A stretch of DNA of 46,449 nucleotides, from assembly GCA_003344405.1 (NCBI GenBank), contig NOWV01000169.1, positions 124,001-170,449 on the forward strand. Reading direction: 5' to 3'. Positions 4,333-33,225 of the stretch are shown here, in pieces; the first letter of the stretch is position 1; each line of letters opens with the position of its first letter. Below the pieces are notes generated by a model. It did not search any database. It had not been told where the DNA came from and saw only the letters and a list, made by a program, of their open reading frames with translations. The position numbers and the translations under genes are program-made. Source of the DNA: Trichoplax sp. H2 (taxonomy: Eukaryota).

Positions 4333-4359
4333 TCTAGGACTTAAAATTTAATATTTTAC

Positions 4360-10467: not shown

Positions 10468-11940
10468 TTAATCGAAGCCTTTCCAGTCACTTGAGTCTGA
10501 GTCATTATCACTTTCAATAACACCAATTTTATGTACTCCATCCTTTAAAGAAGGAGTACCTCTGCCTTTCCCCATTATTTGCGCTTTAATGATAACAGTC
10601 AGGTATTCATTATCTAATAACTTGCTAACGTTATCAGATCTTGAAATCTTTTCTCCTTTGTAAATAATAAAGTGCTCCCTAAATAGACCTTCCTTGATTA
10701 CAGCTAATTCAGCCCCAATTGTATAACATTTCTTAGCGGCATTATAAACAATATGAGAAACCTTAATGTAAATGTTTTGCATCGGAGGTATAACTACATG
10801 TTCCCCTAATATGTCTAGTAAATGAAAGACGTAAAAAGTAGCTTAAAATGACTGTTACATTTTCTGAATTTTTAAAAGATAGCATCTAAAAAGGACGCCG
10901 TCTGTTACTGTCCTATTTTGAACTTATGAACTTACGTAACAAATTACGTGTATCGTATGTTTATTATATAGTTTCGTAATTTCAAACGGTTTCGATAATA
11001 CCTGGAATATCAAATTCTATTCGGTATTTATGCAGGACCTTTAAGAAGCCAATATGAGCAAAAATTTGTGAGTTTCCCTTTGTAGTGATGTTAATGGTGG
11101 TGTCGTCAGAAATACTGCCAATAAATTGCACTCTGTGAACTGAAAACAAAGATTTACTGAATAGTGGAATAACTGTCCTTTGTGTGCCGTTTACCGTACT
11201 GTACAGTATACCATAGTCAATATGCGGGTATATAGTGACAAAAAGTATAAATGATCGACACCCAGAGATGAAACCAGATAGCAAACTAAAGATCTTGCTT
11301 AGAGTACAGTAAAGCAAAGTTTGGAGTCGATCAAACCCCATATGCACGCATTCCTTATATGATCGTACAGTAGAACAGTCCACATTAAAAATACAGAATA
11401 CAGTACAAGAAGTCAGGAACTAACCGCCAACTACTCTACTCAGTTACCTTATTAATACTACGTACAGCCAATTCGATATGTCACACTGCCTGTCCAGTAC
11501 AGTACAGTACAGTGCAGTGTACAGTAAAACATCACGTACTATACACAGTATGTACAGTATGTGTTACAGCCTTTACTTTTTAGTGGTCTCTAACTAAAAT
11601 GAGGATAAAGTAATTGCATGGTAGTAGTACTGTACATATGTATGTGAAGCAGTGAAACAACATACTGTACTACAGTATAAATAACTGAGTTTCGCCAGTG
11701 CCTTACCAAGTACAGTATTACAGTAAAATCGTAACCGTTAGGAGTCCGGTCCAGTCCGGGATCACGTTCCTATTTTAGTGTACAGTAGAGCTGTAGAGCT
11801 GTATAGTATAATACTGTACAATGTAGATGTAGTGTAAAGTAAATTATGTTATGTTTTACATGCTCATACGTAACCTTCTGATTAGTATCCGTTTTAAGTT
11901 TATCGTTTCAACTTTTCTACCTACCTTCGTCTTCTGCCAT
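10468..11940 (-). CDS. ADISSP: ADISSP/C20orf27 (UPF0687) homolog, three exons: 11940-11925, 11139-11002, ~10814-10468
   Basis: Spliced MAEDE-V-HRVQF...AHIGFLKVLHKYRIEFDIP...QIMGKGRGTPSLKDGVHKIG...DSDSSDWKGFD*, matching family motifs GFLKILHRYEITF and GTPMLLDGV...DSEHSDWHGFD. Both introns are phase 1, GT-AG. Confidence 0.88.
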
Positions 11941-12114
11941 CAGTAAATATTAGGTAAATATTTTTAGAGGGTTATCAACGCGCTTTGACTTTTGAAAAAC
12001 TCCTTACTGTCAGAAACGTACTCAAATATTTAAGTATAATGAAAAGCACTTTTCAACAAGCTAACAAATTGGAGTCAGTGGACAAGCGGACGTGAATCAA
12101 CAACCGCACCAACC

Positions 12115-12605
12115 GTCATACTGTACTGTAGTACAGACTGTACACTGTACAGTACAGTAGTGTAGTGTATTTATTAGTACTGTACAGTACAGTACTGTTC
12201 GTCGGTTCAAGTCACATTTTTTCAATTTTTTTTCCTATTTACAGTAATGTACAGTACTGTACAGTATTGTACTAACTGTACTGTACACCATACGAGAAAA
12301 AAGTTGTTTGAATCATTGCCTACCCCCTCTTATTATACTGTACTGTACAGTACAGTACACAGTACAGTACTGTACAGTACTGTATGCTAAAATCAGGGTA
12401 CTGTACACTGTACAGTACAGTACGGTATGCCAAAAATACAGTACAGTACTGTACAAAAAAGTACAGTACTACAGTACTGTACAGTCCTAGCAGTACAGCA
12501 GTACTGTACACTGTACAGTATCTCATCGGCATCCAACTAGAGGGGTCTTCATGATCCGGTCTGGTGGTAGCTGTATTGTATATTGTACAATACAGTACTC
12601 TACGT
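12115..12605. repeat. Dense CAGTA/TACTG pentamer repeat in the ADISSP-CNNM divergent promoter, extending into ADISSP intron 1 (~11490-11830)
   Basis: For example tactgtactgtacagtacagtacacagtacagtactgtacagtactgta at ~12336-12384. Confidence 0.85.
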
Positions 12606-12709
12606 ACCAGGGACTTCTAAGGGAGTTCTAGCAGTAATTACTCTTGTAGTACGGTAACGTTTTCGTACTAACTTACTGAGTTTCAAATTCCGTTGTTTGA
12701 CCAATATAC

Positions 12710-15371
12710 ATGGCGCCCCTTGCTTTCAATCGAGGGTATAAATTTCTACGATTGATTCAATACAAATTTATCATTTATTATTTCATCACAATCTTTACTT
12801 TGCAACTAGAGTGTGTAAAATCTAATAAACTTCTAGCTAAGGAAGATTCATTTCATTATACTACGAATGGTTTAACCGAAATTTCTGTTAATGACACCAT
12901 TGTTGATGTTACTCATCCTTTGAAAGAGGATCGAATTAGGCGTTCACATAACCAACTCCTAAATTCGACGACGATTCTATCTATTTTACCTTTAACAGCT
13001 ACCGCCAAGTTTAAAGATAACGGCGCTTTAAGTTTTCCAGCTTACACAAAGATACATTGCCGTATAGTTGGTAGGCAAATAACGCCGACAACTCAAGTTG
13101 GGTTTTCTGTAACACATGGAGAAAGCGGACATTCATGCGATGTTGTGGGTAGTATTGCCCCCTCCGATGTTATTGTAGATGACTTGACTAAAAACATATC
13201 TGGAAACTTTTCCTTCTCAACTGATAAAATTGGCATTACTTTTTATCTTTGCACGCGTCAATCTAGAAATGACACTTGGGTACACCAAGGACGAGAACCC
13301 TGGCTGACTATAGAAGCTTTTGGCATTCCCTTACCGTTGTTTGTGAAGATATTATTTCTGATTGCCTTGCTTTTACTATCAGGATTATTTAGCGGACTTA
13401 ATTTAGGACTAATGGCCCTAGATCCGACAGAATTACAAGTAGTCATTACGGCTGGCAACGAAACTGAACAGAAATATGCGAAAGTAATCGAACCTATTCG
13501 ACGACATGGAAATTATCTCCTGTGTACCATCTTACTGGGCAACGTCTTAGTAAATAATACATTAACTATTTTATTAGATGATATCACGTCAGGGATAGTA
13601 GCTGTCATTGGTGCAACAATTTCTATTGTCATACTTGGAGAGATTATACCACAATCTATCTGTTCCAGATATGGTTTAGCAATTGGCGCTAGGACTATCT
13701 GGTTGACTAAATTATTCATGGTTGTTACGGCTCCATTATCTTACCCATTAAGTATGATCCTTGACTGGATTCTTGGAGCTGAAATTGGTCGTATTTACAC
13801 TCGAGAAAAATTATTAAAGTTTCTTGAGATAACCAAGAAACATAATGACATTGAAAACGATGAAATGCAAATGATATCAGGTGTACTTAATTTTAAGAAG
13901 AAAACTGTAGTAGACGTCATGACTAAATACGAAGACGTTTTTATGCTCGAAATCGACTCTATTTTAGACTTCGATACAATCGACAGAATCTACCAAAGTG
14001 GTCACAGTCGAATCCCAGTCTATGAAGGAGATTGTTGTAGCGTGGTCTCAATTTTACACGTGAAAGATTTGGCTTTTGTTGATCCGGATGATAGATCACC
14101 TTTGCGAGCTATCGTCGAATGTCACAACCGTCCCGTAAATTGGGTGTACGATGATACGTCATTAGATAGAATGTTAGATTATTTTAAGAAAGGTATTTCT
14201 CACATGGTACTGATTAAGGTGGTTCGACAAGTTGACGATCGTGATCCAGTATATGATATACTTGGAGTTGTTACTCTGGAAGACGTGATTGAAGAACTGA
14301 TACAAAGCGAAATCGTTGATGAGACCGACGTTTACAGTATGTTGATACTATTTTCAATTATATTTATTACTGTTAATAAAATACAAATTATTTTTTGAAC
14401 TTAGAATATTAACACTTTCTTTAGTAACACTATATACTTTTCATTTACTCATTTCGATTTCGTTCAACCCTACATGTAGCTATGTTAAGATAATTAATTA
14501 AATCAGGGTATTGTTTTTAAAATATAGTCGACAACAGGTCTCGGAAGCCAGTCCCAAATCGAAAGAATATTATTGATTTGTCGATGTATCGCGATGCTGA
14601 TTCAGTTTCGTTATCGCCTCAACAAACCTTAGCCGTGTTTCGTTACCTTTCTTCAGGTATGTGATGATGACTGATTTAATTGGTGACGAAATTAGTTATC
14701 TTTAATTAAATACGATTGCTGCTTATATTGCAAACTGTTGTAAATATCAAATATCTTAATCTATTACTTCATGGCGGTAAAATTCTTCATTAGTTGTAGA
14801 TCCATTTTTTGAAGAGTTTATATCAGAAACGATCCTTAAACGTCTGCTAAAGAAAGAGGTTGTCTTCGACCTTCATGTTGCAGGTGCAACCGTTAGCAAA
14901 AAAACTTTGTACGAAAGCGGTATACCGGCTGATTACTTCATTATGATTGTGGAAGGAAAGGTATCTGTTATCGTTGGCGCAGAGAATCTCGGATTTGAAA
15001 GTGGGTCATTTTCGTATTTCGGTGCTCCATGCTTAATTAAGAAAATGCCAGATAGTACGAATAAAATCAGCAGCATAAATTTGTGCGACCAGGAGCTAAA
15101 AAATCCGACTAATTGCTCAAATTCTTCCACTTTTATACCGGATTATTCAGTATATGCCATCACAGACTTACTCTATATCAAGGTAACTGCTACTCAATAT
15201 ATTGCTGCTAGGCAAGCTACGGAATACGAAAGAACTAGGTCCTCATTTCGTAGTAATGATAAAAGTAACTTGCACAACATGAAGGAATCTTCCAAGAACT
15301 TACCTGAAGACTGCCTAGCTATTAGTATCTCTGCTAGCAACTTAAGAAAATCGAATGAAAGCTTAGTATGA
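12710..15371 (+). CDS. CNNM: CNNM/ACDP metal (Mg2+) transporter, exons 12710-14336, 14528-14656, 14794-15371
   Basis: N-terminal hydrophobic segment and extracellular domain, DUF21 TM domain (LSGLFSGLNLGLMALDPTEL; ILGEIIPQSICSRYGL), CBS pair (SGHSRIPVYEG; GVVTLEDVIEELIQSEIVDETDVY|IDNR), and CNBH-like domain (DYFIMIVEGKVSV...FESGSFSYFG). Confidence 0.96.
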
Positions 15372-18300
15372 AACCCTTATTTGTAAAAATAATTTTACTG
15401 GTATCACTACGTTTATACACGTATCGCAGCATCACAAGACTTGATATTAACTTATTCACTTTATTCGAAGATTGCTTAAAGTTTCATACTGATGTGAACA
15501 TCGAGGTTGAAAAATTTTATGTATATTTCTTAATGATCATTTTATTAGCTGGTTAGTGATACCTACCCTTTTCTGGATGCATAAGTTGTCAAGAACAGGG
15601 ATGGCCATAGCTGTAGACCATATATGTTGAGTTATCTACTGTATAATATCATGATCTGACATTTATATTGTATGATGAGCGTGTAGTATTGGAATACACA
15701 GTAATGGAAATGATATTGTTAAGCTAAGATTCTTGGGATAATTCAATCATGATTTCTTTGGTCTTATTGATTCTATTTTAATGAAGGATGATTTTTGTTT
15801 GATAATATGCTGCTTTATTTTTAGGGTGACTGTATCTACTATATATACGTTGAAGTTTTTCATCATGAATATAAATAACTCTTATAGAATAAATCTAGTT
15901 CTATTCACTGTTTATCATCCATTCGACACTGCTAGAAGTGACATGTTTAGACTAAAAGAAGCCAGTAACGAGACTAGCAGCTAGCAGAGAGTAGTCCTTG
16001 GCTAAAATATATATGGATATTACAATATATATGCAATCTACAATTTTATAATATGAATTTTTTATACGTACAATAAACAAATTATGCTGATGGCTTATAC
16101 TCGCATAAGGAGTATAGATGTTATGTATCTATATTATTTTACACGTTAGTTACTCCGCGAGTAGCTCGTAGATTAAACCTTTTTATTACGCAACACGTGC
16201 TTTTATACTTCCACTATATGCCATCATGATATGCGACCTTCGCTAGCTACATTTAGGGCTATGATCTACAGTATAAAATGTAAGACCTCCCTCATTTTGT
16301 TCTAGTAGTCCGCATGAGTCAATCTATGGCTTATTTTTGTTTAAGTAGCCCGCAATCTAAATCAATCATGCTTCAATGTTACTGTTCAGTACTGTAACGA
16401 AGTGTACAGAAGCTCTCGTCTCTTCCTTTCAGTAATACCTAGTTATATACTGCGCAGTACAGGAGCTGAGCAGGAAAGAAAGTTTTACTTTTTGTAAGCT
16501 ACAGTATACACTACAATACTGCACTGTATGTACTAAAAAATTTTTTTTCCCTTCTATTTTTTAAATCATCGAAATGATTTCACTATTTTTTTACTGAAAA
16601 CTGTAAAGTTGTCCCTTTTGGGCCAACGTAGACTACTGTATGATCCATACCACAACAGTACACGGGAGTACAGCACTGTATACAGTATCTGGATTTTATA
16701 TTTCATGGAGTCGAGTATCCTTAGAAATTAAAATACTGCTATCCTCTTATACTGCACAGTATTCTAGACCATATACGATACAGTGCTGTAGGATACAGAA
16801 ATCAGTTTGCTTAATGATTTATAATTATACTGTATATATAATTATTAAAGAGAGAAAAGTACGCACTACGCCGCGCTTCTGCATATTTGCACATTCACGT
16901 TAGTACAGTTTCATTTATTATATACGATACGAAAATCGTAAGAATTTACAGTGTTGTAAACGGTAATGCTGTACTGTGTCTTTTTAATTAACTTAAAGAC
17001 TTCAAGAAATCAAGATTGAAATTTAATTTAATTTATTTATTTCTGAAGTTACAAGTTATACTGATCGGAATACTGTACTGTACTCTATTAAATAATGTAG
17101 TACGCGTACTTACAGTATCATAATTATAATGAGATAGATTTGTGTGCATATAATGTGCTCAGTCATCAACAGCATCTTATCGTATTCTCTGCGAAGTGTA
17201 GCAAGCTTACTAGTTATATACTTACCTAAATTTATCTTTACAACTAGTGTACGTGGATAAATACGCCCGCTGAAGATGTCTAGTACCCCCATCGCTCGTA
17301 ATACTCGCGTACCTTACTTACATTTTTACTAATATGTATATGTTAACATATACATACTCGCATAGTCTTTACTTGTCCAATTTTACTTTATGTATTAGCA
17401 TGTCACAGGTTACAGTGTTCGTATAGTGTACACTTGCTTCTCGAAATTTAGAGCATTGTGATTAGTATAGCTTTAAATACATTTAATTCAATTTTAATAG
17501 CGTTGCTTTCGTATAGTCTTGACAAGCAGACAGTAAATTCCTTGAGTTAATTATACGATTGTTGTATATATATAATGATACTGTAGTAGCTTACGCGTGC
17601 AATAATAATAACGACGTTGTGTGTGCAGTTCTTTCTCTTTTAGTACGGTCGGTATTCCTAGCGGTCGCAGGCGCATATAATCACAATTTCTGATTAACTA
17701 AATTATAGCCTGTTGCAGAGCATTTACGGCTACAATCTGTAAATATCGTGTAAACTAAAACTTAGCTCTGTATTCTGGTTATCTTGTAGATATGTTATGC
17801 ACAATAACTGATGGCACATATCAGATAAGATACTGTGCAGTATTATTAGCTTTTCTGCGTATAACTTTATACATACACTTTCTATGCCAAGGTGCGTAAC
17901 AGGGTCGGGTGTAGTGGGATAGATATAGATTATGATGACTTATTTTTACAATAGTACAGTAGGTAACAGATATATAATTGTATATTGATTAGTTTAAGTT
18001 CCTATGGTACAGTATTAGTGTAATGCTGCTTTTTGAGTATATTAGACTCTCTATTAGGTTAATGAATACTGCGATGTAAAGCAATTACGAATTTCAAGTG
18101 AGTAATAAATAGATTTAGTAAAAAACCTATGAAAGCCTAGAAACTTCGATCTCTTAAAATCTCTTCGTAATAGCAATTAGAGTTGCGAACAGTAGACCAA
18201 TTTAAAAATCATCAAAAATCTTCATAATTCGAAATCCACACAATTACTCTAATTCAAGACATAAACTTATGGCATATTAATTTCACGAGATTATTCTTTT

Positions 18301-18681: not shown

Positions 18682-19635
18682 TCATGCATTATATCGATCA
18701 AAGTAAATATGACCTTGATCGTGATTATCATATTGGTGATTGTAGCTATAATACTTAGTTATTGTAGCGGTATGATGTATATTGTACATTACCGTAGTCG
18801 GTTCTGGAATATATCTTGTGATAGTCCGATAGATGGTATGGTAACTGACTAGTGACCTACTTTTATACGTTTGTTTGGCATTTATACTAATGTGCTCCTT
18901 ATCAACAGAAGGACGAATATTTAACGGTAAATATTTCTTGAGATCTTTAAAGTAAAATTTGTTATATTGGATACTCGGTACCGGTGCTTTATGGATTGAA
19001 TTACGATATTTTTCTCCTTGATAGCTTTTACGATATGGTAAAGTTGTATAATCTTTCGGAATAATTTTCTTAATCATATTCCCTAAAAACAGGCGTAATG
19101 GATACTATCAGCTTATCCTATATTAAATCTTCTTACATAAATGAAAAATACTATTGCAGAGTGTAATAATAACTCGTGTAGATGGACAAGGATTATAGAG
19201 ATAAAGAAACGATCTTTATAAAAGAAACAGATATACCCAACTGGCAAAGATCAGCTTTAACATGGAGCTAACGTACAGTAGAGACGCAACGACTGCGTCA
19301 GTTACATCTAACAGCAAGATATACAGCAACATATATAGTGCAGTACAGTAAGCGTACAATCGTGTGATATATCGTGGTACGTTACTGAGTTAGATAAAGA
19401 GTCATTAAACGAGCATGTATGAATAGACATACAGTGGGTCGTACGACACAGAGTAATGCAGCAAATTGGAAAATCTTAAACGTTTAATATCAGCACTTAT
19501 AAGTAACTTCTTCAGTGACTTCTTCGTACCATTTCCTTTCTCACTAATGGGATAAGAAGAAATAGAGCCTAAGGAAGGTTCAATAATGGCTATCAGTATT
19601 TTAAGTCCAAGTAAAAATAAGGTGATGTGTTTCAT
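18682..19635 (-). CDS. Uncharacterised predicted secreted Tyr/Lys/His-rich protein (gene C), exons 19635-19530 and 19082-18682, 168 aa
   Basis: Exon 1 encodes a signal-peptide-like MKHITLFLLGLKILIAIIEPSLG. The phase-1 donor G|gtacga joins acceptor tttttag|GG in frame with the 131-aa ORF. TATA lies upstream and AATAAA downstream (18488-18483). The C-terminus resembles that of gene A. Confidence 0.72.
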
Positions 19636-19670
19636 TCTGATGTTGAAAGGAAATATGATTTATACAACAG

Positions 19671-19678
19671 TATTTATA
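19671..19678 (-). promoter_or_regulatory. Candidate TATA box of gene C
   Basis: TATAAATA on the minus strand, 36 bp upstream of the ATG, identical to the gene A TATA. The AT-rich background lowers specificity. Confidence 0.45.
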
Positions 19679-20743
19679 TTCTCATCGATAAGTTCACTAC
19701 TTGTTACACTTACGCAAAAGGTAATAACGACAATAACTAGGGGTAAATAACATCGCAAAGGCAGAATATTCGTATAGAATCCGAATCAGACAAAGCAAAT
19801 GGAGTTGTTTGGTATGGATCCAGTATGAATATTAGACCTTTAAAAGGTACAGACCATACAGTACTCCTACTTACTAAGCATAGAGGAGTATCTCTATTTA
19901 ATTTTTAATTATCAGTCCCAATGTGCAAAATTTACTAATTGCATATCACAACACTTTTAGAATAACAAGTAAACAATCTTTTCTCACACTAAATCACTAT
20001 TTTGTTGCCCGAGAGATGAGGGCATGCCGTGAATTAGGATCCTGTTGATCATCTATCTGGTTTGGCATTGGTCTACATCATGAACAATATTTACGATTAA
20101 AAATATATTTATTAATGATTTGACAGACAGATGCTAATTGTGTTAGTACCGATTATCGAACTTACTTATATCGTCTTAGCGGAGATAATCTATTTAACAC
20201 GGAAACAGTGTTATTTTTCTCATATAGTATTTGTTCACATATCATCTTTAAATCTGTTGGAAAGATAACGGGGCGAGTTGGTCTAATTGCAGTGTATCGG
20301 CATCGAGTATAAAATTGCTTAACATTGTCAGAAGTCTGATCGATCATTCGGACATAATGTGCAAGTTCAGCTAGTCTCTGATAAGCAAATTTTTAGTTAC
20401 AGTTTACAAATTATAACAGTTTCACATGACATGCATGCTGTACGACTCGGTCCAATGCTATTAGGGCAGGCACAAATACGCGCATAGTATAATTAGTAAA
20501 AAATTGATTAGGCTAGATACGAGAACTAGTTCAATTGGTCTTGATTTATTTTAGCAGCGCAATTTAAGCAATTAAGTGAGTTTTAGCAGACTGTAAATGT
20601 TCTAAATATCGGAAGTCGCTCTGTGAAGATTATATGATGCAGTACAAATATTATACTGTAACACCGTGTCATCAGCAAAATTCAACGGTAAATCAGACTC
20701 ACTAACCGTACAATGCAGTACTTCTATAATAAGTACTGCACCT

Positions 20744-21876
20744 GTACGATACTTTGATAGAGAAGAGAATACAGTACATCTCACAGAGTAAATTACAGTA
20801 TTAAAAGAGAGGCCAAAAATATGTCGACTGACTGTTTCTCTGGTCATTTTAACCAGGGACTGTAACAGTTTTACGTTAAGTCTTTATTCGAGGGCCTGTC
20901 TTGCTCCTTACTCTTATTACATATACGACCGTCGCAACTAGTCTCTTATCCAGTGAATATAATGTAATGTACTGTATATGTTGTACAGTATATCAAACGT
21001 TATCATAATGTACTATCTATCCCTAATACCTTAATACGGTATTCATATCTAAAGCGTAACAAGTCATAAGCATCACATCTAATACTATGAACCACACGAA
21101 TGTACAATGACGTACAGTATACCGTCACATCTCCTTCTTTATTTAAGTACTAGTTCATACAGTATAGTGCAATCATCGAGCTATGTTAAGCTACAATGAT
21201 GTATACCGTTACGGGGACTACTCGAAAGTAGTTGCTGTTTTAACTATACTGTACAAATTTGAGTGAGTGACCATACAGTATAAAATCGTATACTATTCTG
21301 TACCGTACAGTACTGTATACAGTAAGAAATTTTCTGATACGCGTACAACATGCTAATGATGGTTCTACACTCTACAGTCTCTACCAGTATTGTGCGTTTT
21401 TGGAAATGCAGTACGGTTAAACGAAAACTGAGTTTACTATTATTCCTACTCTGCACGTTTAAACGCAAACCGCGTTTTTAGATAGTCCAAAAGCCGTGTT
21501 TAAACGAAAACACGTTTTCTCTAGGGTAAAGAACGTGTCTTTTTTACCAATATGTCCTTACAATACACGGAGAGTATATCAACTCACTTCGGTTGAAATA
21601 AAACCCTCCTGACGTTTTTAACAAACGTGCGTTCCTCTTCGTGGTCTACCTCCTTTCATTAATTACTAGTGCAAACTCCCGTCGCTTTGCTGACGGTTTA
21701 CGATAATGTGCTCATTTAACAGATAGTATTACCATTTGTCGTACTATTACGTATAATTAATTAATGAATCCCATCTAACCCGTAACATTACGATGTACAG
21801 TATACAGTATACATGTATAAGAAGTGTATTCATCATGTAGTACGAGTAGGATAGTACTTTCATGCTTAACTAGATT
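20744..21876 (+). repeat. Copy 1 of a 1.1-kb near-identical duplicated block (copy 2 at 30081-31151)
   Basis: Collinear match from gtacgatactttgatagagaag to catgcttaactagatt, with scattered substitutions and indels. Confidence 0.95.
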
Positions 21877-22529
21877 AATAAGTTGCATGTAAACATATTA
21901 GTAAAGTACACTACTGTTACTCTTCATTTTTGTCGTTAACTTAAGGACTGAATGCATATTGTAAATTATATAAGTCTTTTACGCTATCATCTTATTTTCA
22001 TATATAGTATTAGTTATACTGTACCAATTCACTTTCATAAAGAAATAATGTATAAGTACACGTGCTCTGAGTAGCAACGAATGTCGAGAAAGATTCAATT
22101 TTTTCAATATTCTGCTGCGAGTATTTTGACTGATTTATATTTTAATTGCTCAAAAGTGCGATAAAAGTTATTAATCCTACCCTAGACGCCATGGTCTACT
22201 ATTTGATGGAATGACATTGACGCAGATTCTAATATCTAGCTAAGTATAATCGAATACAGTAATAACTTTAACTTTATGTTGAGTCAGAACACGGGTGACT
22301 GGTTATACCAAACTATTCATTACAAACAATAAAGGAGAAAAAATGTTAGGAATCGAACTTTATTTAGTTAAAATGATACTTATGAAAATATAGTGCGCTA
22401 CCTATTAGTACAATATTTTATAAATTGGAAAGGGTGATAATTATAGCCTTGACATGGACAATCCGTAATTCAAATGTATTTAAGTGGCTCGTAGTTTATC
22501 AAAAATTGCCAGTGTAAGCTGTGTTAACA

Positions 22530-24048
22530 CTAATTATATTGTTCGTAATAAATATTATCTGCAGTACGATAAATAATCGATGTGACTGTAGTTGGTTCGT
22601 AACGAGTCAAAGTGTAAACGCTTGTAAACGACCTTGTTTGAAAATCGGTTTCAGTTACTGTTTCACGGTTTGTTGCAATTGAACGAACCGTCGTTGAACG
22701 AATAACAGTTGGTGTCGATGTAGTGGTTGAGTATTCAGTTACGGTGTAAAAATTATTTTGTGGGTTATAGCCTTTCAACGTAAATGCTACAGTTTTAGTA
22801 GCTGTCTGTCTTACTATTGTTGGACTAAAAACTGTCCTATATTCTGTTGCGGTTCTGGTTGTTGTAATTAAACTTCTTAATGTAGACGATAACGTCATGA
22901 AACTACTCACGGTAGTAACTGACGTGGTGGTGGTAGTTGAGTAATCAGTATAATATTTTGTGATTGGTTGATATATGGTTATTAGATCCGTTACGTAAAA
23001 GTGTTCTTCATCTTGAAGAGTTTTAACTTTCTCATGTTTCTGTTTAAAGCTAGTTAAACCAGGAGTGCGCCCTGTATTGTACGTAAATACAACATATTAA
23101 TTACAACCAGATTGGTTATTGTTAAATATGGATTATATCATTATTTACAATGTAAAGAATATACGTATATGTATATTCAAGCTCCATTACTGGAGAAAGA
23201 ATATCGAAAATCAAAATTAGAGGCAAAGAATAATATGCTGGAAAATCATTGCCCAAATCTATAGATATACCGTCGGACGATTTTATTTCGGAGTTATTAT
23301 GCAAAGCTACTATTACAATTTACCATAGCACTAGATGATCTAATTATCAATTTCAATACCAATTAATCCAATGAAATCTTTAAATTTAAGATATTCTAAA
23401 TAAAGAATCCTAATGTATTGCAAAATACCAAGAATATAAACATTCTTGAAAATATTACTTGGTCAGTATGGTCGATAAAATATTTATGCAACTATTTGAA
23501 AGATTGTGTTCTAATAGGTATTTATTGAGCTAATCGCAAAAAGGAGCCATAAAAGATGAAGCGGGCTTGAACCAAAATTAAAGAACGAATTTTTAAACAA
23601 TATGAATTCATCCGAATTAGGGCAATACATGAGTTAGTAATTAATTCATAAACTTTCAAGATAACATACCTTTATTCTTACAGACCGATATGTCACAATA
23701 AGCCCAAGACTTTAAGTTAATATAGCACCATGGTCCTCCCATTTTGCGATCAGGATTTCTACAGTAGTTGTGATTGTAACTATATTTCGAGCTATCATGG
23801 CTGAAATGGTTATTCCAATAAATACACTTCTCTCCATGCTTGGTTATACTTGTCTTTCCTTGGTAATTATATCCATAGTCCGTGGGATCGAAGCAATCAC
23901 CTAAATTTTTATATTGATTCTTCTGATACCAATCAATGTTGCGTTCTTGTTTGAATAGTGGATGAATATGATATGAATTTGCTTCACATACGAAGATATA
24001 GTTATTGATACATAACAAATACGTAATTAACTCAAACGCTATCATCAT
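22530..24048 (-). CDS. Predicted secreted single-kringle + Thr-rich protein (gene A), exons 24048-23670 and 23071-22530, 306 aa
   Basis: Signal-like N-terminus, then a six-Cys kringle DCF...YQG..S.T..G..C..W...HNYCRNPD...PWCY....WAYCDISVC. Phase-1 splice AAAG|gtatgt...tacag|GG is in frame with the Thr-rich ORF. No TM segment. Confidence 0.85.
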
Positions 24049-24137
24049 ATCAGAAAGACAATTTATCTTCTATATTCACAAAAGGGGTTCGTATTTGATT
24101 AACAATCTCAATAAGCACCTTTGACTTCGGCGAAGCC

Positions 24138-24145
24138 TATTTATA
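24138..24145 (-). promoter_or_regulatory. Candidate TATA box of gene A
   Basis: TATAAATA on the minus strand, about 90 bp upstream of ATG 24048. Confidence 0.5.
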
Positions 24146-24349
24146 TCTTTCGCAGTGTTGAATAAGTAAATTTTATTTTGATATCTTCAGTTGTTATTAA
24201 AAACAACAGCAAATATGTTTACCGTAAATATGTTATTGCAAGAATAGTTTCGTTAACACCAACAAAGATATTAATCATAACTGACACTTTCGGACCCTAA
24301 TAAATAAGAAAGCTACTGCATCTTGCCGACACTTGGTTTTTCTTTATGG

Positions 24350-24356
24350 TATATAA
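24350..24356 (+). promoter_or_regulatory. Candidate TATA box of gene B
   Basis: TATATAA(GG) about 70 bp upstream of ATG 24424. Confidence 0.5.
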
Positions 24357-24423
24357 GGACCATTCAATGATAATTTGATTTGATTTTTTGGGGGATCGAA
24401 CTTCATCATTAACTCAATTAATC

Positions 24424-25614
24424 ATGAACGCAATATACTTCTCGAAGATATCACTGGCCATCATGTTGATACATTATAGTTGCTGTAACGCTGTATTTGG
24501 AAAAAAAAACTTTAAAAATCGCTTTATTGCTAAAAGAGACTATCATTTTTACGGAGACATTCGACGTGATTGCTATAATCGAGCCACATTGGGTTCCGAT
24601 TATAGCGGCGAAATTAGTTGGACGCAGTATGGCAAGCCATGCATGTTCTGGAATACTTATGGAAGACGAGGAACAAATTATTTTTCCTATAAGCATAACT
24701 ACTGTAGAAATCCTGATAGAAAGCCTGGAGGGCCATGGTGTTACCACGATTTTAATTCTTGGGGCTACTGCGATGTTCCTAAGTGCAGTAATGCTAAAGG
24801 TATTGATATAACATTTATTGATAAGGAATACTTTCAAGTTACTTCATGATTTGTGGCTTTCAATCATATCGCTCATTGGCAGAAACAGCTATAGATTTGG
24901 TTCATGCAACTTATGTTGTACATTATGATGATTGGTCTGCATGGTATTTTTTAACACCATACAGGACGATCATAATCGCAACGAACGTAAAATGATATAT
25001 AAAAAATTGATATTTTATCGCAGTTTGAGATTGTTTTATATGCAGTACGATTAGAGTGATTTTTAGTTAATTCGATGCTTTTGATGCTTGCTTTAGAATT
25101 GTATTATAGACAACATGAGAAGGAAAAATTATACAAGAAGAAAATTCGCTATTATACAATAACAGAATATATTACAAAACCGGTGTACGTTCCATATACT
25201 CGCTCATCTATGGTTACTACTACTACAACGGTAACAGCCCTATCACGTTCCCTTGTTACTGTTCCAGTTACTGCGCGAAGTACAAGTCTAGAGGTAGAAA
25301 CTATGACTAAATTTAGAACGGAACAGAGCCTTAAGCTTATAACAACTACTAAGACTACAACAGACTACCTTGATACATTTGGCGATACAATCTTTCCTGA
25401 AATATTTACCTCAAGTATTACAACAACAGCATCAACTACTACCATATTTATTACCGAGACCAGTCAAACAACATTCGACTTAACCGTTACTCGAACTGTC
25501 ACCAATTTTGAGACCACAACCATTTTGACAACCTCGCCTGTTACTAGTCGATCAATCATTACTAGAGAAATTTATCGTACGATCGTTAATGATGATTCTG
25601 ATTATTTTCTGTAG
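24424..25614 (+). CDS. Predicted secreted single-kringle + Thr-rich protein (gene B), exons 24424-24799 and 25097-25614, 297 aa
   Basis: Signal peptide MNAIYFSKISLAIMLIHYSCCNA, a KR site, and kringle DCY...YSG...KHNYCRNPDRKPGGPWCY...WGYCDVPKC. Phase-1 splice AAAG|gtattg...tttag|AA is in frame with the Thr-rich ORF. AATAAA at 25754-25759. Confidence 0.87.
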
Positions 25615-27669: not shown

Positions 27670-30600
27670 TTAATCCATCCCTTTATCATCTTGTGCAGTT
27701 TTACGATCACTATTCCATGAAGACATATGAGTCGTTTCTATTGGACTTCCACGATACTCTTCATCATCCAATCCATTCGAACCATCATATTGGGTATTAA
27801 CCAATCGCGTAATCATACGTTCGTCATCTTCACCCAAATCACCGCCCATCAGAGACGGTTCTCCAACAATCATTACGTCTTGAGATGGCATGACAACATT
27901 TGGTGCGTCAGGCGACTTCTTTTTGGTTGACGAAATATTAGAATTACCAGTGGTCGTCGAAGCTCTACGTTTACGTTTCTTAGCTTGCGATTGCTTGTTT
28001 TGTGATGAACCTGATGACTCGTCAATTGTAGGCACAGGTATAGAAGTATGAGACAATTCTTGTGGTTTCACGATCGATTGCTGCGGAATCACTGGCACAG
28101 CCATACCTGCAAAATTTACTATGTTTTCATCGAAACGTTACTAAACTACTTATACATTAAATTGTTTTTGTGAAACCTGTGGAGGTACCAGCTACTTGGC
28201 TTTTCTGAAGCACGGTTAAATTCAGACATTCTATAGTGTATTAACAATGCCAATCTATATGAGTACATAACTCTTAAATTAAATTGTACAGAATCGGATA
28301 AAATATTAAGAAATTTTACCACGAGGATTTACAGGATTCGCACTACTCTTTTGTTTAGACATTAATTCTTGCATCAGTTGTAGTGTTACACACATCTATT
28401 AGCGGGAATCAGTCAATTAATTATTCAATATTTAAATTAAAAACCGTACCGTTAGTATTATTAATCTACGCACACGAAGATATTTCATCGTTTCAGTCAA
28501 TAAGTCACGGCGAGAGGGACTTTTATTAATTCCTTCCGAAAAGCTTACTTGTGCAGAAACCTAAAAGTTAACAAGGCTTTTCATACAGGTGAACAGATGA
28601 GGTTAACCTTAATAAACACGAGGCAATCAAATTTGTAGTATTTACTCCATAGGATCCATTTTCATTTGCGTTAACTTGCATGTATTCTTTATGATTCTTA
28701 ATAGCAAACATCCATCTTCGAATTCTCATACTATCATCACATGTCAAATCTAATGTCAGTTTACCTTCTGTATATACCTATGAAATAACAAGATAATTAA
28801 TACTTGATTTTATATCATTAATCATTAACGCCAAAGATTTAATACAAATATACTTTTAAAGGACATGGCGATCCATGGTCAGATACCATCGCAGCATCAT
28901 CACATTCCATAGTAATGATACTTCTTGCAACAGAATCTCTTGGTTGATTGAGAATAAAGTACAAATCTGTTACTCCACGGTCAAACATGCTTCGAAAAAA
29001 CCTAGGAATTAACGTGCGTCCAATAGCTGAAAGAAAGTTGTAACGCAATCACTCAGTTAAATCGCAAAATAATCCATAAATATATGCATTTGACAGCATA
29101 ATTAGCTATCATATTATTGTTAACAATTAAATATCTGCAAAAGTCTCATTGGGAATATTTACTGTTAAACCAGTCAAACTCAAGTGCAATAAATTCTAAC
29201 ATTACAGTAAGCAGCACAAGCTTTCGTCGGCGTCATAATTGCCTAACACTGTACGATTGCAATACAATAAAATAATTTCCATTTAAATCGTGATGAAAAC
29301 CCTTTGATTTCTTTATGCCGGGAATGATACGAGGACAATGTACTACTGTACACATATGCGTAATCTATATGTATACAGTAAATATAGATCACTATAAATC
29401 TTATATCGTAAAATTTTATCAAGTTTAGATTCTGTCAGGGAATTAGCGATAGCCCTATATTTCGATGGCACTGTGCTCCATAACATTAAGTAGAATCAGT
29501 ACGTAACACGAGGCGTGAGGAGACAACAAATCGCCTCAAAACACTTGCATGACCATAGGTGAACTCTTCATATTTCACTAAACTTGTAGTAACAGACTTA
29601 CAATCATAAAGCAACAAACAGTGCCATGCATTTAGAACAGCCTTATCACTGTATCATGAATAATTATTTATACCTCGAAAGAATAATTCCAGGGCTAGGA
29701 TTACTTCCGCTTAACAACTCTGATTATACCATCCCAATGTGAAGCAACCCGCATTGGAAATGCTATGCCATCTCCCGGATTAATATTCGTACATACTGAT
29801 CTACTCTGTTACTTTTGCAGAACAGGGTCTTAATCTGCAATCACAGATTTAATCTCTGAATTAATCTCTGAATTAAAAAATACTTATGTTATTAAGTTCT
29901 TGATGATTTCGTGTAGCACAACTTGTATATGCATCTACCTCATAACTTAAGACATTGATGCTTGTTTATAAACCCGTAAGTATTCCTATACATGATCTAC
30001 AATACTAACGCCTGAATTTTTCATATTTGTAGGTGTTCAAACTTACATCAATTTTTGTTTNNNNNNNNNNNNNNNNNNNNGTACGATACTTTGATAGAGA
30101 AGAGAATACAGTACGTCTCACAGAGTAAACTACAGTATTAAAAGAGAGGCCAAAAATATGTCGACTGACTATTTCTCTGGTCATTTTAACCAGGGACTGT
30201 AACAGTTTTACGTTAAGTCTTTATTCGAGGGCCTGTCTTGCTCCTTACTCTTATTACATTTACGACCGTCGCAACTAGTCTCTTATCCAGTGAATATAAT
30301 GTATACGTTGTACAGTACAGTATATCAAACGTTATCATACTGTACTATCTATCCCTAATACCTTAATACGGTATTCATGTCTAAAGCGTAACAAGTCATA
30401 AGCAGCACATCCAATACTATGAACCACACGAATGTTCAATGTACATACAATGACCGTACAGTATACCGTCACATCTCCTTCTTTATCTAAGTACTAGTTC
30501 ATACAGTACTGTATAGTGCAATCATCGAGCTATGTTAAGCTACAATGATGTATACCGTTACGGGGACTTCTCGAAAGTAGTTGCTGTTTTAACTATACAG

Positions 30601-33225
30601 TACTGTACAAATTTGAGTGAGTGAACATACAGTATAAAATCGTATACTGTTCTGTACTGTACAGTATACAGTAAGAAGTTTTCTGATACGCGTATAACAT
30701 GCTAATGGCGGTTCTACACTCTACACTCTCTACCAGTGTTGTGCGTTTTTGGAAATGCAGTACGGTTAAACGAAAACTGAGTTTACTATTATTCCTACTC
30801 TGCACGTTTAAACGCAAACCGCGTTTTTAGATAGTCCAAAAGCCGTGTTTAAACGAAAACACGTTTTCTAAGGGTAAAAGAACGTGTCTTTTTTACCAAT
30901 ATGTCCTTACAATACACGGAGAGTATATCAACTCACTTCGGTTGAAATAAAACCATCATGACGTTTTTAACAAACGTGCGTTCCTCTTCGTGGTCTACCT
31001 CCTTTCATTAATTACATTATAATACGTATAATTAATTAATGAATCCCATCTAACCCGTAACACTACGATGTACAGTATACAGTATACGTGTATAAGAAGT
31101 GTATTCAACATGTAGTGCGAGTAGGATAGTACTTTCATGCTTAACTAGATTNNNNNNNNNNNNNNNNNNNNCCGCTTAACAACTCTGATTATACCATCCC
31201 AATGTAAAGCAACCCACATTGGAAATGCTATGCCATCTCCCGGATTAATATTCGTACATACTGATCTACTCTGTTACTTTGCAGAACAGGGTCTTAATCT
31301 GCAATCACAGATTTAATCTCTGAATTAAATAATACTTATGTTATTAAGTTCTTGATGATTTCGTGTAGCACAACTTGTATATGCATCTACCTCATAACTT
31401 AAGACATTGATGCTTGTTTATAAACCCGTAAGTATTCCTATACATGATCTACAATACTAACGCCTGAATTTTTCATATTTGTAGGTGTTCAAACTTACAT
31501 CAATTTTTGTTTAAGTAAACAAATTACAGCATAGTTCAACCAACTAATGAGCTACTCCGGCACCTGCTACCGAATTATAACATACATATGTACCAACTCT
31601 GGTAGTTACTCGCAGGTTCTAGCATTAGCAAATAGAGAAACCTACACCTCTGGTTTCAAATGATTACAAAGAGCCAGGCAAACTTCAATATGAGTAACGA
31701 GAAAGCGAATGAATAAATTTTATAAAAATATTTAAGCACTAAGGACGAAAGCTGAAAGTAAATTAATATGAATAATGAAAAGGAATGATTCCCCATTAAA
31801 GCATTTCATATTGTAGATGCATACTATACGTACAATGGAAAAATATTTTATCGTTTGCATCTTTGAAAACCTCACAGCCATCTCATAACTACTTGCATTA
31901 GCTACAGCGAGTGTAAATTCTATAAGACAAGATATGATAAAACACATCTACCTATATTACAGAAAGATGCCAGAAGTTTCTCCGCATAATTATTAATAAT
32001 TCCGAAATATAGTACATGACGTTATTGATTGTACACGGCTATAAAAATATTCAAACCGTTACGAAGCATCTCAGATTAGACTGTATTACTGTACAATATA
32101 AGAATACCATAAGGTTTTAAAATATCATAGTTTCAAAATATTAGACAATCTTGATTACAAAAATCTTAGTGCATGTCCCCAATTTATATTTCTGCGCTTA
32201 CACAACTGTAACAAGCTATAAATTTTTAAACGAATAACTATTACTCGTAAAGATTACTTACTCAAGCGGTTACGAGAGTCATCATTCGGACTTAACTTAA
32301 TTATAGTTAACGTAGCATCATCTTCAAAAAAGTCTGCGGCAAAAGCGTCCCACCACATGTTGTCACTACTCTACAAATATCATCGATATGCATCGAAGGT
32401 GTAGGTATAGACTTAAATTTAAGTTCTCCGTATAGCCGTTAGTTAAGGGCAATCAATTTAAATTACGTATTTTTAAAATTGCAACACAAAACAGTTAAGT
32501 CTATAAAATTACTTCAAACGAAGAGTTCATCTATATTATATAAAGATTAATAGCTAGAAAGAGGTATGTCTTACTAAGCTTCTTGTTCGTAATTTTTTAT
32601 TCATTCTGTATATAATGTAATCTGGCATAACAGCTGAATTTCTTCGAAAGCCACTTCTGTAACATTTTAAAAACTAGTAATTAAGATTAGGAAGGTTATG
32701 AACATATCCAACAGCTTTTTTATGATACGTCCGGTCGATTCTAAGGAGGTTCCTAGTACATCTATCTTATACAATATCACATTAACGAAAATTATTTTTT
32801 TGATCTAGCACAAATTCGGGATAAAAATATTGTCTGCAGTAACAAATTTAAGTATTTACCGTAATGTGTGATTAGATAGTTGTTATCTTTCCTAATTAAG
32901 AATTCAATTCACTAATGATAAAGCGAAATGGGTTATACTGTACATCCTGATAATAATTAAAAGGACTAAAACAATCTGTTTACATTACATATCTTATCAC
33001 CATAGTCTACGAAATGCTCCAGTATCTACTTTATAGTAAAAATATTGGTGCCATTTGTACGTACGGTAGCCAATCCTAGTAGTCCTTGTAGCACTGCAAT
33101 GCACTTGACAGTATATCTTGATTTCCCAAAGATTATTAATGATATGATATATAGTGACAGTGAAATTACTTTCTAGAAACTTACTCAATATCCGGCATCG
33201 GAGACTGCATAGGATGGGTTGGCAT
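27670..33225 (-). CDS. LDB: LIM domain-binding protein (LDB1/LDB2/Chip ortholog), multi-exon; start ATG 33225 provisional
   Basis: Exons encode DYIIYRMNKKL, SDNMWWDAFAADFFEDDATLT, IGRTLIPRFFRSMF, VYTEGKLTLDLTCDDSMRIRRW, MQELMSK, the NLS KKRKRR and the LIM-interaction domain DVMIVGEPSLMGGDLGEDDERMITRLVNTQYD. Confidence 0.95.
29707..30060 (+). repeat. 354-bp segment duplicated at 31172-31512 on the far side of the gaps
   Basis: Direct near-identity; differs by a 12-bp tandem duplication (ttaatctctgaa), a 1-bp indel and a few substitutions. Confidence 0.95.
30061..30080. other. Assembly gap (20 N)
   Basis: Run of N. Confidence 1.
30081..31151 (+). repeat. Copy 2 of the 1.1-kb block, an entire gap-bounded contig inside an LDB intron
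   Basis: Matches 20744-21876 end to end. Confidence 0.95.
31152..31171. other. Assembly gap (20 N)
   Basis: Run of N. Confidence 1.
31172..31512 (+). repeat. Second copy of 29707-30060
   Basis: Direct near-identity. Confidence 0.95.

What the first reader, a model, noticed from the sequence alone, without database searches (positions are those of the whole stretch)
18682..25614. Three-gene cluster of related secreted proteins: candidate adhesive or extracellular-coat system
Seen: three genes share one layout, namely TATA box, signal-peptide exon, one phase-1 intron and a low-complexity second exon. All contain IYRT near the C-terminus. A and C also share TRY(IP)EPTTV and a terminal [NH]IY[YF][ED][QR]YN. 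A and B carry a kringle while C does not, and none has a TM segment, GPI-like tail or protease domain. The cluster interrupts a run of conserved housekeeping genes. Known: kringles usually occur in plasminogen/HGF/prothrombin-type proteases, ROR/MuSK or Kremen. I do not recognise this architecture. Inference: a lineage-specific family of co-secreted structural proteins (mucus, adhesive or surface coat), with kringle-bearing and kringle-less subunits.
Basis: partly seen in the sequence, partly recalled or inferred. Interest (0 to 1): 0.8.

Follow-up and report, generated by a model that had tools for sequence, protein, structure and literature searches.

The report
Placozoan kringle plus threonine-rich secreted proteins
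Three neighbouring genes of the simple marine animal Trichoplax encode small, probably secreted proteins, two with a kringle binding module and a threonine-rich tail; they are real and confined to this phylum, but what they do is still unknown.

Summary
The window is Trichoplax DNA. Three two-exon genes with phase-1 GT..AG introns lie at 18682-19635(-) [C], 22530-24048(-) [A] and 24424-25614(+) [B]. A and B carry one Pfam kringle; C has none. The A and B kringles are 48% identical. Their tails are collinear, and C is weakly but significantly related to the tail of A. The quoted motifs are essentially unique to these exons in the window.

B is already a public model auto-named 'Kremen protein 1', and A is a truncated public model. 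C exists publicly only inside a model that fuses it to A. A published orthogroup table lists A and B as neighbours beside Ldb in four placozoan species.

A profile of the tails found nothing outside these loci among 1.84 billion representatives. That search also missed B, so the absence is weak evidence.

The mucus or adhesive reading has no support. Published co-expression modules hold 3 of 8 orthologues. Two are meiosis or germline-like modules in Trichoplax sp. H2, and one is a peptidergic module.

Best reading: secreted, O-glycosylated kringle-headed extracellular proteins. This is a new variant of a known kind, of modest interest.

The parts
22530..24048 (-). Gene A: exon 1 24048..23670 (signal peptide plus kringle), phase-1 intron 23669..23072, exon 2 23071..22530 (Thr-rich tail, stop included); 306 aa
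   Evidence: Searches give the model. The junction is identical in public models P0005 and P0007. Exon 2 is 84% identical to an ORF from another source, P0004, which stays open to the same C-terminus.
23680..23895 (-). Kringle of A, Cys1 to Cys6 (residues 52-123)
   Evidence: Pfam PF00051 scores 53.2 bits against a 34.3 cut-off. It has six Cys. The best solved relatives are plasminogen and HGF kringles.
22533..22607 (-). Conserved C-terminal block of A: TRYEPTTV, IYRT and the terminal NIYYEQYN
   Evidence: One search shows the motifs are unique in the window. The last 52 residues are 45/52 identical to P0004.
24049..24423 (.). 375-nt head-to-head interval between the A and B start codons, with one TATA-like element facing each gene (24139-24145 minus strand, 24350-24356 plus strand)
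   Evidence: Promoter function is inferred only.
24424..25614 (+). Gene B: exon 1 24424..24799 (signal peptide plus kringle), phase-1 intron 24800..25096, exon 2 25097..25614 (Thr-rich tail, IYRT at 25570-25581); 297 aa
   Evidence: One search gives the model. Public protein P0006 (284 aa, starting at the second Met) matches exon 2 at 100% and uses the same junction.
24571..24786 (+). Kringle of B, Cys1 to Cys6 (residues 50-121)
   Evidence: Pfam PF00051 scores 41.3 bits. It is 48% identical to the A kringle, E 3e-28. It has six Cys.
18682..19635 (-). Gene C (candidate): exon 1 19635..19530 (signal-peptide-like), phase-1 intron 19529..19083, exon 2 19082..18682 (Tyr/Lys/Ile-rich, no Cys, no kringle); 168 aa. 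Motifs: IYRT 18823-18834, TRYIPEPTTV 18790-18819, HIYFDRYN 18688-18711
   Evidence: The same splice junction occurs inside public fused model P0007. In the shuffle test against the A tail, 0 of 2000 shuffles reached the observed score. No separate public model and no orthologue were found.
20165..20377 (-). Open frame used as a linking exon in public models P0005 and P0007 (A exon 2 internal donor -> this exon -> C). It has an AG acceptor and a GTAAGT donor, and no Pfam family.
   Evidence: Whether it is ever transcribed or spliced this way is unknown.

Best explanation
A and B are ancient head-to-head paralogues specific to placozoans. Each encodes a small secreted protein made of three parts: an N-terminal signal peptide; one compact kringle stabilised by three disulfides, which would act as the protein-binding head; and a tail of about 170 residues. 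The tail is 36% Thr+Ser, poor in Pro and Gly, about one third hydrophobic or aromatic, and ends in a conserved Tyr-rich block.

I read the tail as a mucin-type O-glycosylated, extended or beta-rich extracellular segment. Its Tyr-rich end would mediate association or cross-linking. On this reading the proteins work outside the cell as components of a coat or matrix, not as enzymes or receptors.

C is most likely a third, kringle-less member. It is a small basic Tyr/Lys-rich secreted protein derived from an A-like gene, and it keeps the phase-1 intron and the C-terminal block.

Shown: exon structure, kringles, paralogy, and conservation of the A-B pair across placozoans. Inferred: secretion, glycosylation, extracellular structural role, and the independence of C.
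For: Gene models agree with public models.

Kringles are above the Pfam cut-off with six Cys each. No other domain was found.

The only hydrophobic segment is N-terminal.

Paralogy:
- The A and B kringles are 48% identical.
- The A and B tails are collinear, z about 6, with 0/2000 shuffles reaching the observed score.
- C against the A tail gives z about 4.9, 0/2000.

The A tail is 84% identical, without indels, to an independent ORF (P0004). Its last third is 45/52 identical, so the sequence and not just the composition is constrained.

Orthogroups OG_6844 (B) and OG_6845 (A) each hold one gene from all four placozoan species. Their gene numbers are adjacent and lie next to Ldb.

Tail composition: T+S 36%, up to 54-56% in 50-residue windows.

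None of A, B, C or P0004 has an N-x-S/T sequon, where domain-wise shuffles expect 6.5 for A+B+C. P(0)=0.0009, noticed post hoc. Such avoidance only makes sense for proteins that pass through the ER.

C is an old paralogue: DNA identity to A is only 61% over 92 nt. It still keeps open frames of 35+133 codons, a signal-like exon and canonical splice sites.
Against: No signal-peptide, O-glycosylation or GPI predictor could be run.

No transcript or protein evidence was seen directly.

Both structure predictions were uninformative, with mean pLDDT 30.9 and 32.7.

The tail has only 3% Pro and more than 30% hydrophobic residues, which is unlike classical PTS mucin domains.

Five of the 8 A/B orthologues are in no expression module, and the three that are do not point to secretory gland or epithelial cells. 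An abundant structural product would be expected to be a strong cell-type marker.

C has no separate public model and no detectable orthologue. Codon-usage scoring could not tell it from chance ORFs.
Confidence: 0.5

Rival explanations
1. Egg-coat or germline-associated proteins. A, B and C are made in oocyte or germline-state cells and stored for secretion, for example in cortical granules. They would build or harden the multilayered 'fertilization membrane' (eggshell), perhaps through cross-linking of Tyr-rich ends.
For: In Trichoplax sp. H2, B (TrispH2_007833) is in module TrH2.purple, which the authors annotate as 'meiosis'. The A/C model (TrispH2_007832) is in TrH2.green, together with RAD51, RAD52, MLH3, FBXO43, an HSF5-like factor, CDC20 and CDK2.

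Placozoan oocytes have cortical granules and a 2-3-layered fertilization membrane. No composition is given in the passages read from PMC3098260.

The mature proteins are 8-13% Tyr and free of N-glycan sequons. That dityrosine hardens egg envelopes in other animals is recalled, not tested here.
Against: Module memberships are moderate (0.68-0.74), in large modules. TrH2.green occurs 422 times in the file and is dominated by housekeeping, cell-cycle and repair genes.

A/C and B are in different modules. TrH2.green carries no curated annotation.

The H1, H13 and H23 orthologues do not show this pattern. H23 B is in 'peptidergic_kappa'.

Counts for the fused H2 model cannot be assigned to A or to C.
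Confidence: 0.15
2. One reading: co-secreted mucus, adhesive or gliding-coat proteins from ventral gland or epithelial cells.
For: The proteins have a secreted-type layout and a Thr-rich tail. C is a small, basic, Tyr/Lys-rich protein with K+R 22 against D+E 10 and Y 13%. That composition is reminiscent, by recall, of marine adhesive proteins.

The feature-based atlas search gave only weak leads to arthropod Thr-rich 'hypothetical' and 'putative Zonadhesin' clusters, scoring 0.83-0.87, below the tool's 0.9 line.
Against: None of the 8 orthologues is in a gland, ventral or dorsal epithelial, or lipophil module.

The mucocyte markers reported in PMC12013895 are a VWD/TIL/C8/PTS gel-forming mucin and other genes. 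The gene numbers and 'kringle' have 0 occurrences in its text and its 3 held supplement files.
Confidence: 0.12
3. Soluble kringle ligands or modulators of signalling, acting like HGF NK-type fragments or Kremen-like Wnt modulators and released by peptidergic secretory cells. The tail would be only a glycosylated spacer.
For: The automatic names are 'hepatocyte_growth_factor', 'lipoprotein_a' and 'Kremen protein 1'. The closest solved kringles are from plasminogen, HGF, prothrombin and ROR1. H23 B is in the peptidergic_kappa module, membership 0.518.
Against: The names rest on the kringle alone. There is no PAN, WSC, CUB, protease or TM part.

The tail and its C-terminal block are conserved as sequence, which a mere spacer would not need.

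Only 1 of 8 orthologues links to a peptidergic module, and weakly.
Confidence: 0.08
4. C is not an independent gene. Either its exons are downstream exons of read-through or alternative A transcripts, as in the public fused model, or it is a non-functional leftover of an old partial duplication.
For: P0007 is letter-identical to the window. It joins truncated A, the frame 20165-20377 and all of C, using canonical AG and GTAAGT sites and an AG directly before C's ATG.

No separate C model exists in any of four species by gene numbering. No homologue was found. The codon-usage test was uninformative.
Against: The fused model discards the last 52 residues of A, which are 45/52 identical in P0004.

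The two public models use different internal donors, 22910 and 22688. Both start in mid-kringle, so they look like predictor artefacts.

In the fusion, C's signal-like segment would sit mid-protein.

C has its own TATA-like elements at -43/-29 and AATAAA at +194. A has AATAAA at +166.

C's frame stays open despite saturating DNA divergence from A.
Confidence: 0.3

Closest known systems
Kremen 1/2 (the automatic NCBI name of gene B)
   Same: One extracellular kringle near the N-terminus after a signal peptide.
   Different: No WSC domain, no CUB domain and no transmembrane segment. A Thr-rich tail takes their place. The name reflects a best hit to the kringle only.
Plasminogen / HGF / apolipoprotein(a) kringle proteins (automatic names in the published orthogroup table)
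   Same: These are the closest solved kringles. Plasminogen kringles score 30-41 bits each and HGF K1 39 bits. The NYCRNPD...GGPWCY core and six Cys are present.
   Different: There is a single kringle, about 72 residues from Cys1 to Cys6, with a shortened loop (alignment). There is no PAN/apple domain and no serine-protease domain. In the alignment a Lys in A lies opposite the second Asp after the conserved NP in plasminogen kringles 1, 4 and 5, and B has the same D-R-K. That this Asp belongs to the lysine-binding site is recalled.
Mucin-like (PTS) domains of secreted and membrane mucins
   Same: High Thr+Ser: 36% over the tail, 45-46% in the best 100-residue window, with runs of 4-5 Thr. This makes dense O-glycosylation plausible.
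   Different: Pro is only 2-3% and hydrophobic plus aromatic residues are 31-34%. There are no VWD/C8/TIL modules. The tail is conserved as sequence without indels. There are no tandem repeats.
Thr/Val/Ile-rich, beta-aggregating regions of fungal cell-surface adhesins such as Als (recalled; a functional analogy only)
   Same: A Thr-rich, beta-branched, Pro-poor segment following a globular binding head. Thr/Ser pairs are weakly enriched at spacings 2 and 4, z 1.4-2.9.
   Different: No sequence relationship was tested or expected. There is no GPI signal-like hydrophobic tail. Aggregation was not tested.

Membership tests
Kringle domain (Pfam PF00051) | Match to the family HMM above the gathering score | tested here: met
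   A exon 1 scores 53.2 bits and B exon 1 scores 41.3 bits against a 34.3 cut-off. C and all second exons have no match.
Kringle domain (Pfam PF00051) | Six cysteines for three disulfides | tested here: met
   A: Cys 52, 75, 96, 108, 118, 123. B: Cys 50, 73, 94, 106, 116, 121. The disulfide pairing itself is not testable here.
Lysine-binding kringles (plasminogen K1/K4/K5 type) | Pair of acidic residues in the stretch after the conserved NP (the role of these residues is recalled) | tested here: not met
   In the alignment, A has D-R-K where plasminogen kringles 1, 4 and 5 have D-x-D. B has the same D-R-K.
Kremen | WSC and CUB domains after the kringle | tested here: not met
   There is no WSC or CUB match in any exon at E up to 1.
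Kremen | Single-pass transmembrane segment | tested here: not met
   The maximum 19-residue hydropathy after residue 30 is 0.89 (A) and 0.94 (B). No dedicated TM predictor was available.
Plasminogen/HGF family | PAN/apple domain, several kringles and a trypsin-like domain | tested here: not met
   Pfam finds one kringle and nothing else. Both genes end at stop codons that are also the ends of P0006 and, two codons later, of P0004.
Gel-forming mucins | VWD, C8 and TIL modules | tested here: not met
   No such Pfam match. The placozoan gel-forming mucin described in PMC12013895 is a different gene.
Mucin-like PTS domain | Ser+Thr about 40% or more together with appreciable Pro (thresholds recalled) | tested here: inconclusive
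   The best 100-residue windows have S+T 45% (A) and 46% (B), but Pro is only 2-3%. Glycosylation is not testable here.
The A/B/C family itself | Significant similarity of the second exons beyond composition | tested here: met
   Shuffle tests: A-B 0/2000, A-C 0/2000, B-C 62/2000. Composition-adjusted BLASTP is weak: E 0.05, 0.003 and 0.23.

The most novel reading that the evidence does not exclude
A, B and C are the first molecular components of the placozoan egg envelope. They would be kringle-headed, N-glycan-free, Thr/Tyr-rich proteins, plus a small basic Tyr/Lys-rich partner, made in germline-state cells, released from cortical granules and cross-linked through their conserved Tyr-rich ends into the 'fertilization membrane'. 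More broadly, they could be a placozoan-specific self-assembling extracellular material.
Probability: 0.12. Interest if true: 0.7.

Novelty: new variant of a known kind. Interest (0 to 1): 0.36.

Why it matters
Placozoans are a key lineage for early animal evolution. Their extracellular materials (mucus, adhesive, egg envelope) are almost uncharacterised at the molecular level.

The kringle is a classic mobile module bounded by phase-1 introns. Here it is joined to a lineage-specific Thr-rich tail that has been conserved across the phylum. This would be a clean example of exon-shuffling-type innovation outside bilaterians.

If the germline hint is real, these genes would be handles on placozoan sexual reproduction, which is poorly understood.

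Practically, the locus shows that current public models are wrong in three ways. A is truncated in mid-kringle, A is fused to C, and the names 'Kremen' and 'HGF' rest on the kringle alone.

Tried and rejected
- AlphaFold2 of B (P0006, single sequence) and of the A tail with the 4-row alignment A1 gave mean pLDDT 30.9 and 32.7. Nothing was usable, so no fold search was run.
- Complex prediction with the A kringle plus C exon 2 gave no verdict, score 0.00. This is not evidence either way.
- Codon-usage log-odds trained on 1,687 codons of flanking genes did not separate C, A or B from chance ORFs.
- ESM-Atlas look-alikes: the A tail scored 0.87 at best, below the 0.9 line. C gave no usable hit.
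- A PDB sequence search with the tail profile gave 0 hits at E up to 1.
- The word-based homologue search for C exon 2 found 1 candidate and no hit.
- A weak tblastn match of C to 17557-17682(-) is a Tyr-rich chance ORF.
- Identifying P0007 with TrispH2_007832 is my inference.
- The 2018 single-cell paper (Sebe-Pedros et al.) is not held.
- Literature searches:
  - The gene identifiers returned 0 papers.
  - Trichoplax+kringle returned 12 papers and Trichoplax+Kremen 6 (listings). I read passages of two from the kringle list.
  - kringle+threonine-rich+secreted returned 15 papers. I read passages of two.
  - None of the passages read describes this family.
- No tRNA or Rfam match lies anywhere in the window.
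- Rejected reading: a Kremen or HGF orthologue. The defining domains are absent.
- Rejected reading: a recent tandem duplication. DNA similarity is low.
- Not checked: eukaryotic genome or transcriptome DNA.

Full report
Origin and setting

The window has about 33% G+C and comes from a placozoan of the genus Trichoplax.
- Exon 2 of gene A matches 'uncharacterized protein TRIADDRAFT_61766 [Trichoplax adhaerens]' at 100% over the shared part.
- Exon 2 of gene B matches, at 100% and in full, a 284-aa protein named 'Kremen protein 1 [Trichoplax sp. H2]'.
- A third public protein, P0007, is letter-identical to the window. The T. adhaerens model P0005 differs at 3 of 61 residues in one linking exon.

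Pfam on the larger flanking frames gives these neighbours:
- BCCIP, 3484-4347(-)
- DUF4517, 10468-11419(-)
- CNNM, 12701-15371(+)
- an Ldb LIM-interaction domain, 27670-28137(-)
- a CCT chaperonin subunit, 42443-44060(-)

The anatomy

Reading the region and assembling exons by coordinates gives three two-exon genes.
- A(-): 24048..23670 + 23071..22530, 306 aa.
- B(+): 24424..24799 + 25097..25614, 297 aa.
- C(-): 19635..19530 + 19082..18682, 168 aa.

Each has one GT..AG intron in phase 1, of 598, 297 and 447 nt.

The B junction is the one in public protein P0006, which simply starts at the second Met. The A and C junctions are the ones used inside public models P0005 and P0007.

Exon 1 of A and of B contains a hydrophobic N-terminus and a whole kringle. 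Pfam PF00051 scores 53.2 and 41.3 bits against a cut-off of 34.3, and each kringle has six Cys. Exon 1 of C is only a signal-like segment.

No Pfam family reaches its cut-off in any second exon or in C.

After residue 30, no 19-residue window exceeds a hydropathy of 0.94. I therefore see no TM segment and no hydrophobic GPI-type tail. No dedicated predictor was available.

A and B face away from each other with 375 nt between their start codons. TATA-like heptamers lie at -97, -74 and -43/-29. AATAAA lies 166, 140 and 194 nt after the stops. In a 67% A+T genome these are weak evidence.

Relatedness

- The two kringles are 48% identical, E 3e-28.
- The A and B tails align end to end at about 30% identity. 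Composition-adjusted BLASTP is weak, E 0.05. A Smith-Waterman score against 2000 shuffles of the partner gives z of about 6, with 0 of 2000 reaching the observed score.
- C against the A tail gives E 0.003 and 0 of 2000 shuffles, z about 4.9.
- C against B is marginal, 62 of 2000.
- In the six-frame translation of the whole window, IYRT occurs 4 times, 3 of them in these exons. TRY(IP)EPTTV and the terminal motif occur only in A and C.
- At DNA level C and A are barely alignable (61% over 92 nt, E 0.057). A and B align only over the kringle core, at 70% over 116 nt. These are old paralogues, not a recent duplication.

- Exon 1 of A and B is more than a signal exon.
- C's second exon is Tyr/Lys/Ile-rich (Y 14%, K 11%, T 8%) rather than Thr-rich.
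- C's IYRT is not at the position homologous to A's.

What is public already

B is a complete public model with an automatic name.

A is public only as models that begin in mid-kringle, lacking the signal peptide and half of the domain. These models leave exon 2 early through internal GT sites at 22910 (P0005) or 22688 (P0007) and enter a frame at 20165-20377. P0007 then continues through an AG immediately before C's ATG into all of C.

I regard these as predictor artefacts, or at most minor isoforms, for three reasons.
- An independent ORF, P0004 (183 aa, unnamed source), is 84% identical to A exon 2 without indels. It stays open to the same C-terminus plus two codons.
- Identity by thirds of the A tail is 33/48, 65/74 and 45/52. 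The part the public models discard is as conserved as the rest.
- The H2 annotation was made with MAKER, Augustus and GeneMark using RNA-seq evidence (passages of PMC6057997). Some transcript support for a read-through therefore cannot be excluded.

Conservation across the phylum

I searched the supplementary orthogroup table of Najle et al. 2023 (PMC10580291, file 4) by gene id and read the returned passages.
- OG_6845 holds Tadh_TriadG61766, TrH2_TrispH2_007832, Hhon_g03341 and HoiH23_PlH23_007946.
- OG_6844 holds Tadh_TriadG61767, TrH2_TrispH2_007833, Hhon_g03340 and HoiH23_PlH23_007945.

The order implied by gene numbers is:
- H2: CNNM-A-B-Ldb.
- H23: Ldb-B-A-CNNM-eRF1.
- H13: Ldb-B-A-eRF1.

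The A-B pair next to Ldb therefore predates the split of the placozoan genera. It does not 'interrupt' anything recently. No separate gene sits where C would be in H13 or H23. That file was cut when stored, and gene order is inferred from numbering only.

Beyond placozoans

- Word-based searches found 2 hits among 259 candidates for the A tail, 1 among 449 for the B tail and 0 among 1 for C. All hits are from these loci.
- An HMM of the four tails (alignment A1), run over 1,835,955,588 representatives, returned only 3 proteins: P0007, P0004 and P0005.
- B itself, a member of the profile, was not returned. The library therefore does not represent even this genus fully, and the absence elsewhere is suggestive only.
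- The tail profile has no relative among solved structures.
- No eukaryotic DNA collection was available.

What the sequences suggest

- The kringles are closest to plasminogen, HGF, prothrombin and ROR1 kringles, with a shortened loop between the second and third Cys.
- Where plasminogen kringles 1, 4 and 5 have D-x-D after the conserved NP, both A and B have D-R-K. By recall, that Asp pair is the anionic centre of the lysine-binding site. Canonical lysine binding is therefore unlikely.
- The A and B tails are 36% Thr+Ser, reaching 54-56% in 50-residue windows. They have only 3% Pro and 1% Gly, and 31-34% hydrophobic plus aromatic residues. There are no tandem repeats there.
- Thr/Ser pairs are mildly enriched at spacings 2 and 4, z 1.4-2.9.
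- This is not a classical PTS mucin composition. It looks more like a glycosylated, beta-prone segment.
- Mature A, B and C are 10%, 8% and 13% Tyr. C is basic and has no Cys.
- None of A, B, C or P0004 has an N-x-S/T sequon, although domain-wise shuffles expect 6.5 in A+B+C; P(0)=0.0009. I noticed this after the fact, so it is a lead. Flanking intracellular and membrane genes show no such depletion.
- Avoidance of N-glycan sites is meaningful only for proteins that traverse the ER, and it would suit tightly packing or cross-linked material.

Expression evidence

I saw no reads. In the WGCNA module table of Najle et al. (file 3; sheet a read in full, and sheet b searched by id and read in part 65), only 3 of the 8 A/B orthologues appear.
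- TrispH2_007833 (B) is in TrH2.purple, membership 0.684, curated as 'meiosis'.
- TrispH2_007832 (the A/C model) is in TrH2.green, membership 0.744. This module has no curated label. Its members include serine dehydratase, an HSF5-like factor, FBXO43, RAD51, RAD52, MLH3, CDK2, CKS1B, CDC20, MAD2L1, TOP2A and CENPE, many housekeeping genes, and the window neighbour TrispH2_007830.
- HoiH23_PlH23_007945 (B) is in HoiH23.greenyellow, membership 0.518, curated as 'peptidergic_kappa'.
- The other five orthologues (both H1 genes, both H13 genes and H23 A) are in no module.

Nothing links the family to gland, lipophil or epithelial modules. The 2025 study of placozoan secretory cells (PMC12013895) names a VWD/TIL/C8/PTS mucin and other markers for mucocytes. 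It has 0 occurrences of these gene numbers or of 'kringle' in its text and in its 3 held supplement files.

The mucus or adhesive interpretation is thus unsupported, though not excluded. The H2 data hint instead at a germline or meiotic cell state.

Placozoan oocytes hold cortical granules and build a two- to three-layered 'fertilization membrane'. Its composition is not given in the passages I read (PMC3098260). Tyr-rich, N-glycan-free secreted proteins would be reasonable building blocks. That is my boldest reading, at low probability.

Verdict

- The feature is real, and the three-gene description is essentially right.
- A and B are phylum-wide, head-to-head paralogues. They encode a signal peptide, a kringle and a Thr-rich tail, an architecture that matches none of Kremen, HGF/plasminogen, ROR or gel-forming mucins on their defining domains.
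- C is a plausible kringle-less relative whose independence from A remains open.
- Most likely these are secreted, O-glycosylated extracellular coat or matrix proteins. Where they act is unknown.
- The family is uncharacterised. There were 0 papers for the gene identifiers, and the topic searches and the passages read describe no such family.
- It is, however, not unannotated. Lineage-specific secreted proteins are common, so I rate the interest as modest.

Noticed in passing
window-wide; clusters at about 4450-5330, 9680-9700, 11190-12600, 16385-17080, 20600-21400, 30310-30610, 33415-35280, 41060-41215: A pentamer-based repeat (TACAG/TACTG)n, often as the palindromic TACAGTACTGTA. There are 62 matches with up to 1 mismatch against 0.36 expected. 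TRF arrays lie at 12336-12520 and 34684-34728. It fills intergenic DNA and creates long stop-free frames reading ...YCTVLYCTV..., which mimic ORFs of 90-160 aa.
   Followed up: partly
20165-20377 (-): A 71-codon frame with a good AG acceptor and a consensus GTAAGT donor. Two public gene models use it to link A to downstream sequence. It has no Pfam family. It differs at 3 of 61 residues between the T. adhaerens model and the window, whereas the A part is 78/78 identical. Whether it is a real exon, a UTR exon of C or noise is unknown.
   Followed up: partly
genes A, B, C (18682-25614) and P0004: N-x-S/T sequons are completely absent from the mature proteins, despite N-, S- and T-rich composition. 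Shuffles expect 6.5, P about 0.0009, noticed post hoc. Flanking genes are not depleted.
   Followed up: yes
23670-24048 (-) and 24424-24462 (+): Public models are truncated at the 5' end. Both A models start at an internal Met in mid-kringle and so lose the signal peptide and the Pfam hit. The B model starts 13 codons downstream of the first ATG.
   Followed up: yes
10468-11419 (-): The DUF4517 (C20orf27-like) neighbour, TrispH2_007830 by gene numbering, sits in the same unannotated H2 co-expression module (TrH2.green, 0.686) as the A/C model. This could mean regional co-expression rather than shared function.
   Followed up: no
not in the window (search behaviour): The profile search over 1.84 billion representatives did not return gene B, although B's own tail was in the profile. 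Negative results from that library should be read with care.
   Followed up: no
Najle et al. 2023 Table S3 (file 3): 'Kringle' occurs 71 times in the module table of the four placozoans. Examples are single-kringle genes TriadG31001 and TriadG29648 in gland modules. Placozoans seem to have many small kringle-only genes, and whether any share the Thr-rich tail was not examined.
   Followed up: no
1-46449: No tRNA gene and no Rfam family at gathering score anywhere in the window.
   Followed up: yes
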